A stretch of 16,525 nucleotides of DNA from a virus (lineage: Duplodnaviria > Heunggongvirae > Uroviricota > Caudoviricetes): the IMG/VR virus record IMGVR_UViG_2778261085_000008, positions 1 to 16,525 of that record, one strand, 5' to 3'. Below are positions 6,001 to 9,000 of the stretch, piece by piece. Numbering within the stretch: the stretch's first letter is position 1; each line of letters opens with the position of its first letter. The position numbers are program-made.

Positions 6001-9000
6001 GAGGAAGTAGAGAACGCTGATATCAACCAACGTCTACTGGAAGTCATTGAACAGATCGGGAGTTACTCAAAGCAGATTCGTTCGGCAATCGAAGATGGGC
6101 TAGTGGAGCCACATGAACAGACAGCAATTAATGATGAGTTGTATCTGTCGATTTCGAAGCTCCAGGAACATGCGGCGCTGGTCTACAAAATTTTCTGCGC
6201 TCCAGAAAAGAGTGACGCCCGCGAGTGTGCAGCTCCGGGCGTCGTGGCGTTTTGTGTCCGTGGAGAAACTAACGCATGAACAGTTTAACGGCAAATAACC
6301 GTTTGTCGCAACAGTTGGTGGTCAGCGTCGCTGAACACCTGTTGTTACGGCATGAATGCAGATTACCAAATCACCTGGCTGTAAGTAACCACAGAGAACT
6401 TTACCTGACTGTGGGGGGCGAGTTGTGCAGGAACTTAACCGCTGGTTTCGTGACGGAAGAGGACTTTATGTTCATGTTATTCGTTGGGAGCCAGAAACAC
6501 AGCGCGTTATCTATCTTCGCAAAGACTACCCGCATGAGTGCTTTAGTCCTTTGTGGAAATTCAGGCGTGATTTTGTTGAGTGTGAAGGACCACCAGCACA
6601 TTGATTCTGCCATTCCGGGACGTTACACTGTTCAGGCACCTTATAAAGCGGGTGTCGGGATTGGCGTCCTGGAATTGCATACGGCGACAATTGGCGCGTT
6701 AGCGTCTTTTTTGTTGCTACAACTCAGCTATACCCAAATTATGGTGGGCTGGGTGGGGGCACCGAAAGGTGCGCCGGTTTCCGTATGCGCCGGTTACGCC
6801 AACCCTGCTCAGTTCACCACCAGCGAAATTGGCGTTTCCGGTGGTGGAAGTTATCCATTGCATACGGAGGCTGCCATCATGGCTACTGTCCCAGCCCTCT
6901 CTCGTCTGAATGATGAAGACTTACATAAACTCAGTTATGTAACAACTGCACTACGTGATCTGCGCAAGGTAACTCTTTCGGATCCGCAGGCGCATGAAGT
7001 TCTGGTAGAAACCCTTCTTAACTTGCAGGCTGAACGTATTCGTCTGGCGGATAAGGCTAATTTTCATATTCACCGTCTCCTGAATATCAGCGGAGGGCAT
7101 CGTCATGCTTAATCCGTTGATCCTCAATATTTGCCGTTTTCTTCAGCGTAAAAAAACATCAATTCCTACAGTTGGGCAGTGGTACACCACACCTGCAGGG
7201 CATGTTCTACGTGTTAGCTTGGTTGACCGTGAAATTCCGGGAGGTTACACTGTTCAGGCACCTTATAAAGCGGGTGCCGGGCGTGGAAACCCGGAATTCA
7301 CCAAAGCGCACAACCGCGCTCTTGCGGTTTTTTTGTGTCATGAGCAGCATTACGCCCAAATTATGGTGGGGCGTGCAGGGCCAACTTCGGTTGGGCCGGG
7401 TTCTTTGGTGACCGGTATTTCCACCCCTGTACGTCTCACCACCAATAAGGTCGTGGAAAGCCTTGGTGGTGAGTTATTAAAAATCACCAAAGAGGCTGCC
7501 ATCATGGCTACGATCCCAACCCTCACTCAACCTGAAATTGCCATCGTTGATGGTCAGGCTGTTACTTCATCCCTAGCTGTTGCCAACTTCTTCTCCAAAC
7601 GTCATGACGATGTACTGAAAAAGATCCGCACGCTTGAATGTTCCGCATCATTCACTGCCCGCAATTTTTCGGTGAGTGATTACACCGATTGCACAGGCCG
7701 CAAACTACCTTGCTATCAAATAACCCGCGACGGCTTTGCGTTTCTTGCTATGGGTTTCACGGGGAAACGTGCTGCCCAGTTCAAAGAGGCATACATCAAT
7801 GCCTTTAACCAGATGGAAAAGCAGCTTTCAAGGCCATCCACGCTGAGCGATGCCGCACATAACGCCAGCGTGCTTTACTCCCACTTGTCGGTAATCCACA
7901 AAGTCTGGCTGCAGCAGCTTTATCCCATGTTGGCAAAAGCCGAATCCCCGCTGGCTATAAGTCTGTATGACCGCATCAACGACGCGGCGGTACTGGCCAG
8001 TCTCATAAATCTGTCACTGAACCCTTCAGAGGTAAGGGGGGGCAAATGATCCGGAATATTTTCAAACGGTTTACCAATCAGACTTTCCGTTGTCCTCGTC
8101 CGGGCCAGTGGTACACCACACCTGCAGGGCATGTTCTACGTGTTAGCCTGGTTGACCGTGAATGTCAGAAAGTGATTTGTGAACCGTTGGGCCGTAATTA
8201 CCGCGTCAGTATGCCGCTTATAGCCTTTCGCTCCGGAAAAAACATGAAGCATCTCGGAGGTGCAGCATGAGTATGGAGCTGATGGTTAAAGCGATGAAAA
8301 TTCGAGTGGGTAATCCATTGCGAAAACTGGTTCTGATCAAGCTGGCTGATAATGCCAGCGATCAGGGTGAGTGCTGGCCCAGCTACCAGCATATTGCTGA
8401 CCAGTGCGAGATTAGCAAACGTTCTGTGATGAATCATATTGCGGCCCTTTGTGAGTCCGGGCTGGTAAAAAAAGTCACCCGGAAAGGTGAAAAAGGTAAC
8501 TCAAGTAATATCTATCTCCTTCATCTGGATGGTGCAGGAGATTCACCAGGGGGTAGTGCAAATAATTCACTATCTGGTGCAGCAAATTCACCAGGTAGTG
8601 CAGGAGTTGCACCAGGGGGTAGTGCAGGAGATTCACCCAGAACCAGTCACTCTTTTGAACCAGTCAATGAACCAGTCAATGAACCAATAGCTGTTGGTGC
8701 ATCAGTTGATGAGTCCGTGCGAGTTCGTTCAAACCGACCGGAATACTCTCCGGAGTTTGAGCAGGCATGGCTGGCATATCCCAAACGTGCTGGTGGCAAT
8801 TCAAAATCTGCAGCCTTCAAAGCCTGGAAAGCCCGTTTGAATGAGGGGGTAAACCCCGAAACCATGCTGGAAGGTGTGAAACGCTACGCGGGCTGGGTAT
8901 CTGCGATGGGTAACAGCGGCACACAATTTGTGAAACAGGCTGTCACGTTCTTTGGTCCGGATCGTCATTTCGAAGAATCCTGGGAAGTTCCTGCGGTATC

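What the first reader, a model, noticed from the sequence alone, without database searches (positions are those of the whole stretch)
6276..7503. Two diverged copies of a promoter-leader-terminator-RBS cassette, one in front of rha and one in front of an unrelated 77-aa ORF
Both copies have a TTGAyy-N17-TACACT promoter, an identical 32-nt block, an intrinsic terminator about 75 nt downstream, further conserved blocks, and an identical RBS/start (GAGGCTGCCATCATGGCTAC). They are colinear with a single 3-nt indel but only roughly 75% identical, and the downstream genes diverge after 5 codons. This looks like a conserved attenuator or short-RNA regulatory module acting as a recombination linker.
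Basis: partly seen in the sequence, partly recalled or inferred. Interest (0 to 1): 0.6.

Follow-up and report, generated by a model that had tools for sequence, protein, structure and literature searches.

The report
Two tandem phage antisense-RNA immunity modules
The repeat is two copies, with different target specificities, of the well-known P1/P4-type phage regulatory module (a short decoy RNA, an antisense RNA and the ribosome site it blocks), one guarding a small gene and one guarding an antirepressor gene, so it is a nice but essentially ordinary example of a known system.

Summary
Windows 6612-6903 and 7234-7528 are colinear with one 3-nt indel, but identity is 65%, not about 75%. Each copy matches two Rfam families above their gathering scores: isrK (6636-6712, 7258-7334) and C4 antisense RNA (6737-6824, 7359-7446). 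This is the layout of P1 immI (a1-b1-c4-a2-b2-icd-ant), P4 immunity (PLE-seqA-CI-seqC-kil/eta) and Gifsy-1 isrK-orf45-anrP.

In each copy the C4 loop (b') and junction (a') are complementary to sites in isrK (a1, b1) and to sites next to the Shine-Dalgarno sequence (a2, b2). All three sites differ together between the copies, so the modules are predicted not to cross-react. The same three-way covariation appears in about 75 cassettes from other phages and genomes.

Substitutions show no third-codon-position bias, unlike the rha control. Pfam's "Ash" domain is therefore a translation of the RNA module. The long frames are nevertheless kept free of stop codons and are start-coupled to the upstream genes, like P4's nested eta/kil.

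The shared 20-nt RBS/start block is a real recombination joint.

Verdict: new members of a known kind, arranged in tandem. Interest is modest.

The parts
6276..7112 (+). Long frame 1 (eta-like). Its ATG overlaps the stop of the CII/YmfL-like gene (ATGA). It runs through the DUF4222 gene in another frame, through module 1, and in frame into the 77-aa ORF.
   Evidence: No stop codon in this phase across 13 lambdoid/P2-like cassettes, against 26 distinct stop positions in the other two phases. No amino-acid constraint. The P4 eta/kil layout is the same.
6425..6604 (+). DUF4222 gene (59 aa). This is the real conserved gene just upstream of module 1. Its stop codon lies inside the -35 hexamer.
   Evidence: Pfam DUF4222, E 9.5e-14. 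Third-position bias falls in this frame, not the long frame (3/3/14 versus 11/26/17). RefSeq relatives annotate it.
6601..6629 (+). Internal promoter 1: TTGATT-N17-TACACT.
   Evidence: The -10 hexamer aligns with TACACT/TACATT/TAGAGT/TATAGT in relatives, including P1's annotated P1c4 -10.
6636..6712 (+). isrK-1: short terminated RNA carrying decoy sites a1 (6661-6667, TTGGCGT) and b1 (6677-6684, GCATACGG); intrinsic terminator at 6693-6712.
   Evidence: Rfam RF01394, 58.9 bits against a gathering score of 50. Hairpin covariation. Site coordinates.
6737..6824 (+). C4-1 antisense RNA: loop b' at 6781-6788 (CCGTATGC), junction a' at 6796-6802 (ACGCCAA). By analogy with P1 the mature RNA is about 6743-6821.
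   Evidence: Rfam RF01695, 80.7 bits against a gathering score of 45. 27-pair structure 99.3% paired, with 13 pairs showing compensatory changes. The minimum-free-energy fold equals the Rfam fold, -45 kcal/mol.
6829..6870 (+). Target region 1: a2 (6829-6835, TTGGCGT), b2 (6860-6867, GCATACGG) overlapping the Shine-Dalgarno GGAGG (6866-6870).
   Evidence: Cognate duplex -39.6 kcal/mol against -26.1 with C4-2.
6879..7112 (+). Nested 77-aa ORF. It occupies the position of kil/icd; its function is unknown.
   Evidence: PHROG 4908/3960. No Pfam, NCBIfam or PDB match and no similarity to P1 Icd.
7105..8049 (+). Long frame 2. It starts 8 nt inside the end of frame 1 (ATGCTTAA). The first 43 codons are the N-terminus of an orf74/78-like gene. 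It then runs through module 2 in frame into rha.
7223..7251 (+). Internal promoter 2: TTGACC-N17-TACACT. The -35 hexamer is supplied by the orf74-like remnant.
7258..7334 (+). isrK-2: a1 (7283-7289, GTGGAAA), b1 (7298-7306, TCACCAAAG), terminator at 7312-7334.
   Evidence: Rfam RF01394, 67 bits.
7359..7446 (+). C4-2 antisense RNA: b' at 7403-7411 (CTTTGGTGA), a' at 7418-7424 (TTTCCAC).
   Evidence: Rfam RF01695, 83.6 bits.
7453..7495 (+). Target region 2: a2 (7453-7459), b2 (7484-7492) overlapping the Shine-Dalgarno AGAGG (7491-7495).
   Evidence: Cognate duplex -30.4 kcal/mol against -16.9 with C4-1.
7504..8049 (+). Nested rha gene (181 aa, Rha-family regulator/antirepressor-like).
   Evidence: Pfam Phage_pRha, E 5e-31. 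TIGR02681. PHROG hits to antirepressor families.
7174..7233 (+). Left copy of a 60-nt direct repeat (97% identical to 8103-8162). It is a relic of an orf74/78-like gene. The recombination junction with module 2 lies at 7233/7234.
   Evidence: E. coli relatives match up to exactly 7233. The junction was not found in four collections.
8046..8270 (+). orf74 (PHROG 1153). It holds the right copy of the 60-nt repeat (8103-8162). It is start-coupled to rha (ATGA) and its end overlaps the start of the O-like replication gene (ATGA).

Best explanation
The repeat is two tandem copies of the P1-immI / P4-immunity type RNA module. They sit inside the early rightward operon of an e14/SfV-like lambdoid prophage, in the order cI | cro, cII-like ymfL, DUF4222, module 1 + orf77, module 2 + rha, orf74, O-like replication gene.

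Shown by sequence and comparison: each module has, in order,
- an internal sigma-70-type promoter;
- a roughly 77-nt terminated RNA (isrK, equivalent to P4 seqA and P1 a1b1) carrying sites a1 and b1;
- a roughly 79-88-nt highly structured antisense RNA (C4, equivalent to P4 CI) whose hairpin loop b' and 3' junction a' are complementary to a1/b1;
- identical sites a2/b2 downstream, with b2 overlapping the Shine-Dalgarno sequence of the nested gene.

Inferred from P1, P4 and Gifsy-1:
- In the lysogen, the internal promoters make mostly short IsrK-like RNA.
- Read-through transcripts yield C4, probably processed by RNase P just after the conserved AUUAU.
- C4 pairs with a2/b2 and blocks translation of orf77 (module 1) or rha (module 2). 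The untranslated transcript then terminates, probably through Rho.
- IsrK carries the same sites and can titrate C4, switching translation on, as shown for Gifsy-1 IsrK.
- When the phage repressor is lost, ribosomes coupled from ymfL (ATGA overlaps) translate the long frames straight through both modules. This should override the terminators and the antisense control, as P4 eta translation does. It explains why the frames are kept open with no amino-acid constraint.

The two modules differ at all six sites: a = TTGGCGT versus GTGGAAA, and b = GCATACGG versus TCACCAAAG. Each C4 should therefore control only its own gene.

The conserved 20-nt RBS/start block lets cassettes and downstream genes be exchanged by recombination without breaking the control.
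For: **Identity of the parts**
- Rfam isrK and C4 both score above their gathering thresholds in both copies.
- Direct blastn similarity reaches P1 c4, N15, SfV, ST64B and P2-like phages.
- The P1 GenBank record annotates the same order and spacing: promoter, a1, b1, c4, a2, b2, icd, ant.
- P4 has isrK plus C4 over its seqA/CI region. Its kil RBS/start, CAGGAGGCTGCCATCATGGCTAC, contains the window's 20-nt block.

**RNA structure and pairing**
- C4 structure: 99.3% of cells paired, against 34-47% when the partners are slid; 13 pairs with compensatory changes.
- isrK hairpins: 98.7% paired.
- Three-way covariation of a1/a'/a2 and b1/b'/b2 in 16 cassettes (8 a-types, about 12 b-types) and in 61 further cassettes from GTDB genomes (about 19 a-types, about 39 b-types).
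- Cognate Watson-Crick runs average 6.8-8.6 nt, against 3.7-3.9 nt for non-cognate pairs.
- Within the window, cognate duplexes are about 4 to 23 kcal/mol more stable than crossed ones.

**Coding test**
- No codon-position bias in the cassettes, while rha shows it.
- Stop codons are absent from one phase only: 0 against 26 distinct positions, roughly P = 3e-5.
- Start codons are coupled to the upstream stops.

**Published mechanisms**
- Gifsy-1 IsrK activates translation in trans (PMC4825925).
- P4 eta/kil/CI are summarised in PMC10111431.

**Mosaic joint**
- The joint lies at the RBS block.
Against: - Nothing here shows transcription, termination, processing or repression in this prophage. 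All functional steps are inferred by homology.
- Promoter 1 is a weak consensus match (8/12). Promoter 2 has a -35 hexamer borrowed from an unrelated gene remnant.
- The Rfam c4-a1b1 model scores below its gathering threshold here (20-23 bits against 46.7), although isrK covers the same bases.
- In Gifsy-1 the frame over C4 (orf45) ends before anrP. Here it runs on in frame, so the translational-coupling detail may differ.
- Full-length cofolding gives little net gain (0 to -4.4 kcal/mol), because C4's own fold is very stable. Pairing probably starts from the loop and junction, and was not modelled kinetically.
- P1, N15-like and some other members have stops in the long frame, so read-through translation is not a universal feature of the family.
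- The exact 7233/7234 junction occurs nowhere else searched, so an assembly chimera cannot be formally excluded.
Confidence: 0.85

Rival explanations
1. The repeats encode a real, duplicated N-terminal protein domain (Pfam Phage_ASH) fused to different C-terminal domains. On this view the sequence conservation reflects protein function, and the RNA matches are incidental.
For: - Pfam Phage_ASH hits both long ORFs above its cutoff (E 1.6e-16 and 1.7e-15).
- Several PHROG families include this N-terminal extension.
- RefSeq/PGAP and phage annotators call "ash family protein" or long "Rha" proteins here.
- The frame is open and in phase with the downstream ATG in all lambdoid variants.
Against: - Differences between copies are spread evenly over codon positions (29/33/37; 0.277/0.306/0.302 over 55 pairs). 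The adjacent rha control shows 0.22/0.18/0.42.
- Conservation follows base pairs and three-way complementary sites, not amino acids.
- In P4, PF10554 matches the obsolete "cI protein" ORF lying over the CI RNA. By established P4 work, cited from memory, the immunity factor there is the RNA.
- P1, N15 and Aeromonas members have stops in this frame.
Confidence: 0.04
2. Each copy is only a cis-acting leader: a promoter, a terminator acting as an attenuator, and an RBS-sequestering fold. No trans-acting antisense RNA is involved.
For: - Terminator-like hairpins lie about 77 nt downstream of the promoters.
- The minimum-free-energy fold of the full leader 1 pairs the b'-a' segment in cis with a2 and b2/SD.
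- Gifsy-1 work describes a cis "structure A" that is translationally silent.
Against: - The same C4 element is a processed, trans-acting RNA in P1 (annotated misc_RNA with binding sites) and in P4.
- The strict maintenance of a second, upstream copy of the target sites inside a separately terminated RNA (a1/b1) is hard to explain by a cis fold alone.
- IsrK acts in trans in Gifsy-1 (Table 1 of PMC4825925).
Confidence: 0.05
3. The tandem arrangement is an evolutionary accident. It would be a recent illegitimate recombination between an SfV/e14-type and an mEp460-type phage, or an assembly chimera. One of the two modules would be functionally irrelevant or decaying in a cryptic prophage.
For: - The 7233/7234 junction is found in no other sequence searched.
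- Module 2 is bracketed by a 60-nt, 97% identical direct repeat, and its -35 hexamer comes from a gene remnant.
- The closest E. coli relatives carry a single module.
Against: - Both modules keep every element intact: promoter, isrK, terminator, C4, perfect 7-nt a sites, 8-9-nt b sites, SD and open frame.
- The recombinant frame is in phase.
- Tandem pairs with other junctions, orders and specificities recur in 5 of 80 IMG/VR loci and in Symbiopectobacterium. The b specificities always differ within a pair.
Confidence: 0.06

Closest known systems
Satellite phage P4 immunity region (PLE - seqA - CI RNA/seqB - seqC - nested kil/eta)
   Same: - Rfam isrK and C4 hit P4 seqA and CI.
- Same order and spacing: the nested ATG lies 55 nt after C4.
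- Same RBS/start block, GGAGGCTGCCATCATGGCTAC, and MAT... N-terminus.
- A short ORF (kil, 65 aa) is nested in frame inside a long ORF (eta, about 197 codons). That long ORF starts upstream of the internal promoter and overlaps the stop of the preceding gene.
   Different: - The host element is a lambdoid prophage, not a satellite.
- The nested genes are an unrelated 77-aa ORF and an rha gene rather than kil.
- Two modules stand in series, with different a/b sequences.
- P4's Rho-dependent terminator timm and the immunity-insensitive upstream promoter PLL have no demonstrated counterparts here. PR and ymfL coupling are inferred to play that role.
Phage P1/P7 immI operon (c4 - icd - ant)
   Same: - Promoter, a1, b1, c4, a2, b2, small ORF, then antirepressor, with nearly identical spacing (a1 lies +32 from the -10 in both).
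- b2 overlaps the RBS.
- There is direct nucleotide similarity to c4.
   Different: - In P1 one c4 controls icd and ant in a single operon. Here the small ORF and the antirepressor-like gene each have their own module.
- orf77 has no similarity to Icd.
- P1 has stops in the long frame, so there is no nested long ORF.
- No P1 C1 operator was looked for.
Salmonella Gifsy-1 isrK - orf45 (STnc1160) - anrP locus (PMC4825925)
   Same: - An isrK-family RNA with its terminator.
- A stable processed RNA downstream, followed by an antirepressor-like gene.
- The published pairing G28/G31 with C162/C159 falls on what are a1 and a' here.
- The orf45 start at +107 corresponds to the conserved AUG at the 5' end of C4.
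   Different: - In Gifsy-1, orf45 ends just before anrP and is translationally coupled to it. Here that frame continues in frame into the gene.
- The paper treats the region as an ORF/mRNA and only tentatively as a CI-like RNA.
- Gifsy-1 has a single module.
Pfam PF10554 Phage_ASH ("Ash protein family")
   Same: It matches the translation of exactly the cassette, in both copies.
   Different: There is no amino-acid-level selection. The family appears to be a translation of the RNA module.

Membership tests
Rfam RF01695 C4 antisense RNA (= P1/P7 c4, P4 CI) | Covariance-model score at or above the curated gathering score (45 bits) | tested here: met
   80.7 bits (6737-6824) and 83.6 bits (7359-7446), full-length 1-87/87.
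Rfam RF01695 C4 antisense RNA (= P1/P7 c4, P4 CI) | Long closing stem plus two hairpins, supported by compensatory changes | tested here: met
   27 pairs, 99.3% paired against 34-47% with slid partners; 13 pairs changed on both sides. The minimum-free-energy fold of each copy gives the same structure.
Rfam RF01695 C4 antisense RNA (= P1/P7 c4, P4 CI) | Unpaired a' and b' complementary to target sites a2/b2 at the RBS of the downstream gene and to a1/b1 upstream | tested here: met
   7-nt perfect a sites and 8-10-nt b sites in both copies, at the same positions as P1's annotated sites. Cognate pairing exceeds non-cognate pairing.
Rfam RF01695 C4 antisense RNA (= P1/P7 c4, P4 CI) | Mature RNA released from a longer transcript by processing (RNase P) and acting in trans | not testable with these tools
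   Only the conserved AUUAU|GG 5' context and the CACCACC 3' end can be seen.
Rfam RF01394 isrK (= P4 seqA region) | Score at or above the gathering score (50 bits); two 5' hairpins plus an intrinsic terminator | tested here: met
   58.9 and 67 bits. Hairpins 98.7% paired, with 4 compensatory pairs. Terminator-like hairpins with T runs.
Rfam RF03163 c4-a1b1 | Score at or above the gathering score (46.7 bits) | tested here: not met
   20.4 and 22.6 bits. The P1 leader reaches 51 bits. The same bases are covered by isrK, so the a1/b1 function is still indicated.
P4-type nested eta/kil arrangement | Short ORF with its own RBS nested in frame in a long ORF that starts upstream of the internal promoter and is start-coupled to the preceding gene | tested here: met
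   6276..7112 contains 6879..7112, and 7105..8049 contains 7504..8049. ATGA and ATGCTTAA overlaps. P4 shows the same layout.
P4-type nested eta/kil arrangement | Translation of the long ORF prevents immunity-specific (Rho-dependent) termination | not testable with these tools
   Only indirect evidence: selective absence of stops in that phase, 0 against 26 positions.
P1 immI operon | An icd homologue followed by ant under one c4 | tested here: not met
   orf77 has no similarity to Icd. The small ORF and rha have separate modules.
Gifsy-1 isrK-orf45-anrP | Separate 45-codon ORF over the C4-like RNA that stops at the antirepressor start | tested here: not met
   The frame from the conserved AUG (6741, 7363) continues in frame without a stop into the nested gene.
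Pfam PF10554 Phage_ASH as a protein domain | Profile score above the cutoff | tested here: met
   61.1 and 57.8 bits against a cutoff of 26.
Pfam PF10554 Phage_ASH as a protein domain | Purifying selection on the amino-acid sequence (third-position excess of substitutions) | tested here: not met
   29/33/37, and 0.277/0.306/0.302 over 55 pairs; the rha control gives 0.22/0.18/0.42.

The most novel reading that the evidence does not exclude
Lambdoid prophages may carry arrays of C4-type modules that do not cross-react, each insulating a different antirepressor-like gene. Three things would follow.

- Specificity would be a two-part code (a x b; at least 19 and at least 39 variants seen here) that evolves by concerted change at three sites. 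It would be reshuffled by recombination at the conserved blocks.
- The long "Ash-Rha" proteins annotated in thousands of genomes would not be real domain fusions. They would be frames kept open purely so that ribosomes arriving from the early operon can run through and disarm the RNA module.
- K-12 "YmfM" would then be the stump of such a frame, lying over a conserved DUF4222 gene.
Probability: 0.35. Interest if true: 0.5.

Novelty: new member of a known kind. Interest (0 to 1): 0.3.

Why it matters
- It shows that a control system best known from P1, P4 and one Salmonella prophage is a standard, exchangeable part of E. coli lambdoid prophages, including Stx-phage relatives. There it sits directly upstream of antirepressor-like rha genes and the replication genes, so it may affect lysogen stability.
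- It supplies a natural catalogue of antisense/target pairs, many predicted not to cross-react.
- It flags annotation problems. The Pfam "Ash" domain, many long "Rha"/"ash family" CDS calls and possibly K-12 ymfM describe translations of an RNA module or of a frame that is merely kept open.

Tried and rejected
- Protein-domain reading of the repeat: rejected on codon-position statistics.
- orf77 as an Icd homologue: no alignment. It has no Pfam, NCBIfam or PDB match, so its function remains unknown.
- K-12 e14 as a model: it has no isrK or C4 in the stretch fetched (L088), and its similarity to the window breaks off after 6312 apart from one 74-nt stretch.
- Search for the exact 7233/7234 junction: none in complete E. 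coli genomes, IMG/VR, GTDB representative genomes or JGI metagenomes.
- H135 looked like a second tandem case because of its length, but it has one module plus an extra methyltransferase gene.
- Retrieving Gifsy-1 DNA with the Rfam isrK consensus failed. The comparison with Gifsy-1 therefore rests on the nucleotide numbering in PMC4825925.
- Forti et al. 1999 (PMC94026) is not held. The P4 eta/kil mechanism is cited through PMC10111431, from the P4 sequence itself and from my own knowledge.
- A single consensus structure for the isrK terminator could not be written on the alignment, because two terminator classes differ in register. It was left out of the pair count.
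Full report
**1. Observation**

The two stretches 6612-6903 and 7234-7528 align colinearly with one 3-nt indel.
- The longest identical run is 33 nt.
- The RBS/start block GAGGCTGCCATCATGGCTAC is identical in both copies (6867-6886, 7492-7511).
- Both copies have a TTGAyy-N17-TACACT promoter-like site. Only copy 2 passes the consensus scan.
- Both have a G+C-rich hairpin followed by a T run about 77 nt after the inferred start.
- Both nested ATGs (6879, 7504) are in frame with the long ORFs 6276..7112 and 7105..8049.

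**2. What it is**

A scan against Rfam at the curated thresholds finds two families in each copy: isrK (RF01394; 6636-6712 and 7258-7334) and, 25 nt downstream, C4 antisense RNA (RF01695; 6737-6824 and 7359-7446). E-values are 1e-10 to 1e-15. A related model, c4-a1b1, overlaps isrK but scores below threshold.

The cassette has direct nucleotide similarity to phage P1 c4, N15, SfV, ST64B, cdtI, Stx phages, P2-like phages and an Aeromonas phage. Every one of these loci has the isrK (or c4-a1b1) plus C4 pair.

The P1 GenBank record annotates promoter, a1, b1, c4, a2, b2, icd and ant in the same order and with almost the same spacing as in the window.

In P4, isrK and C4 fall on seqA and the CI RNA. 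The P4 kil gene starts 55 nt after C4 with CAGGAGGCTGCCATCATGGCTAC, which contains the window's 20-nt block.

**3. RNA or protein?**

Evidence for the RNA:
- The C4 structure is 99.3% paired in 16 diverse sequences, against 34-47% when the partners are slid. Thirteen pairs carry compensatory changes.
- The isrK 5' hairpins behave likewise.
- The C4 hairpin loop (b') and 3' junction (a') are complementary to two sites in isrK (a1, b1) and to two sites after C4 (a2, b2). Site b2 abuts or overlaps the Shine-Dalgarno sequence.
- All three partners change together: 8 a-types and about 12 b-types in 16 cassettes. A further 61 cassettes from GTDB species genomes carry the RBS block and give about 19 a-types and about 39 b-types.
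- Cognate Watson-Crick runs average 6.8-8.6 nt, non-cognate runs 3.7-3.9 nt.

Evidence against amino-acid constraint:
- Substitutions show no third-position excess: 29/33/37 between the two copies, and 0.277/0.306/0.302 over 55 lambdoid pairs.
- The adjacent rha gene gives 0.22/0.18/0.42.

The conservation is therefore RNA-level. Pfam's Phage_ASH domain matches exactly the cassette translation. In P4 it matches the obsolete "cI protein" ORF lying over the CI RNA, not epsilon. It is a translation of the RNA module.

**4. The long frames are still not meaningless**

- In 11 lambdoid and 2 P2-like cassettes, the phase of the conserved AUG at the C4 5' end has no stop codon. The other two phases have stops at 26 distinct alignment positions, many inside the variable specificity sites. 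The rough probability is (2/3)^26 = 3e-5.
- 47 of 61 GTDB cassettes are also open in this phase.
- P1-like, N15-like and Aeromonas members have stops there.
- In the window the long frames start with overlaps on the preceding stop codons: ATGA at 6276 and ATGCTTAA at 7105. The chain continues with ATGA at 8046 and 8267.

This is the P4 eta/kil arrangement. The short gene (kil) is under RNA immunity. The long in-frame gene (eta) is translated only from an upstream promoter, and its translation prevents termination. This is summarised in PMC10111431; the original, Forti et al. 1999, is not held.

I infer the same here. Ribosomes coming from the derepressed early operon run through and override both modules. 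That the frame is kept open is shown; what the openness is for is inferred.

**5. Mechanism proposed**

In the lysogen each internal promoter makes mainly the short IsrK-like RNA. Read-through gives C4. C4 pairs through a'/b' with a2/b2 and occludes the SD of orf77 or rha, so the untranslated transcript terminates.

IsrK carries identical sites and can titrate C4. This fits the Gifsy-1 result that IsrK supplied in trans raises anrP translation more than 100-fold. It also fits the finding that the pairs G28/G31 with C162/C159 matter. By position these are a1 and a'.

The two modules differ at every site. Predicted cognate duplexes are -39.6 and -30.4 kcal/mol on the targets, against -16.9 and -26.1 for crossed pairs. 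On isrK the values are -37.6 and -36.2 against -26.9 and -16.9. The two modules should not cross-react.

**6. Origin and the "linker" idea**

Relatives carry one module, in one of two arrangements:
- DUF4222 - cassette - orf77 - orf78 - replication gene (SfV, e14-like);
- DUF4222 - cassette - rha - orf74 - replication gene (mEp460, cdtI and many E. coli).

The window combines both. E. coli matches to the first type stop exactly at 7233. Bases 7174-7233 repeat at 8103-8162 with 97% identity. The N-terminus of long frame 2 is therefore a remnant of an orf74/78-like gene joined, in frame, to module 2. This junction is not found elsewhere.

Tandem modules with other junctions, orders and spacings do occur in 5 of 80 IMG/VR loci and in Symbiopectobacterium purcellii. 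The b sites always differ within a pair.

IMG/VR locus L031 has a cassette 100% identical (267/267) to the window's copy 1. It is followed from the start-codon block onward by an rha that matches the window's rha at 159/160 over its first 160 nt (90.7% over the whole 546-nt gene). The same cassette precedes a 120-aa gene in L077 and L078. The conserved RBS/start block is therefore a real recombination joint, and it moves genes under an intact control module.

**7. Comparison and novelty**

The element works like, and by the tested criteria belongs to, the C4/CI plus isrK/seqA immunity-RNA system.
- It is not a P1 immI operon in the strict sense: there is no icd homologue and the modules are split.
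- It lacks Gifsy-1's separate orf45 stop.
- The tandem arrangement, with specificities predicted not to cross-react, and the documented joint are modest additions.

I rate it a new member of a known kind, interest 0.3.

**8. Limits**

No expression data exist for this locus, so all functional steps are by homology. orf77 has no recognisable function. An assembly chimera at 7233/7234 cannot be excluded.

Noticed in passing
window 6276-6611; L088 (E. coli K-12 e14) 2823-3161: K-12 ymfM ("cell division inhibitor YmfM") shares its ATGA-coupled start with the window's long frame 1, but its amino-acid sequence is poorly conserved. The overlapping DUF4222 frame (window 6425-6604) is the one under purifying selection: 3/3/14 against 11/26/17 versus ST64B. 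The ymfM study cloned the annotated ORF without a frame-specific test, so the active product could be the DUF4222 protein. YmfM looks like the stump of an eta-like read-through frame.
   Followed up: partly
window 6624-6902 and 7246-7536; L095 (P4) 8330-8521: Pfam PF10554 (Phage_ASH) is built on translations of the isrK/C4 RNA module. In P4 it hits the obsolete "cI gene product" ORF, not epsilon, which is PF25738. A P4-satellite survey (PMC8628076) used PF10554 as its epsilon marker. An Stx-phage study (PMC8951638) discusses "Rha/Ash domain" proteins.
   Followed up: yes
window 6867-6886, 7492-7511; L096-L158: The 20-nt RBS/start block GAGGCTGCCATYATGGCTAC occurs exactly in 63 GTDB species-representative genomes, including Aeromonas, Serratia, Edwardsiella, Yersinia, Erwinia, Pantoea and Klebsiella. 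A C4 RNA lies next to it in nearly all of them. Many precede 62-66-aa Kil-like ORFs, so they are probably P4-like satellites.
   Followed up: partly
window 7174-7233 and 8103-8162: A 60-nt direct repeat (97% identical) brackets module 2 plus rha. Homologous recombination between the copies would delete them precisely and restore an SfV-type gene order.
   Followed up: partly
window 6741-6743 and 7363-7365: The conserved AUG at the 5' end of C4 corresponds to the orf45 start in Gifsy-1. It straddles the position where P1 c4 is annotated to begin (AU|G). Processing of C4 would therefore destroy that start codon.
   Followed up: no
window 7459-7497: In leader 2 the minimum-free-energy fold pairs b2/SD (UCACCAAAGAGGC) with a local upstream sequence (GCCUUGGUGGUGA) that resembles the b' loop. 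This is a possible cis sequestration of the rha RBS in addition to C4. The GGTGGTG motif between a2 and b2 is conserved in all lambdoid cassettes.
   Followed up: no
window 15116-15188 and 15194-15267: Two tRNA genes lie in the late-regulatory region downstream of a DUF968 gene and a CAAX-protease-like gene, an arrangement reminiscent of Stx-phage relatives.
   Followed up: no
L140 6480-6567 and 7433-7520 (Symbiopectobacterium purcellii); L031, L077, L078, L079, L081: These are further prophages with two C4 modules in tandem. The a site is sometimes shared within a pair, while the b site always differs. This suggests that b, which overlaps the RBS, is the main specificity determinant.
   Followed up: partly
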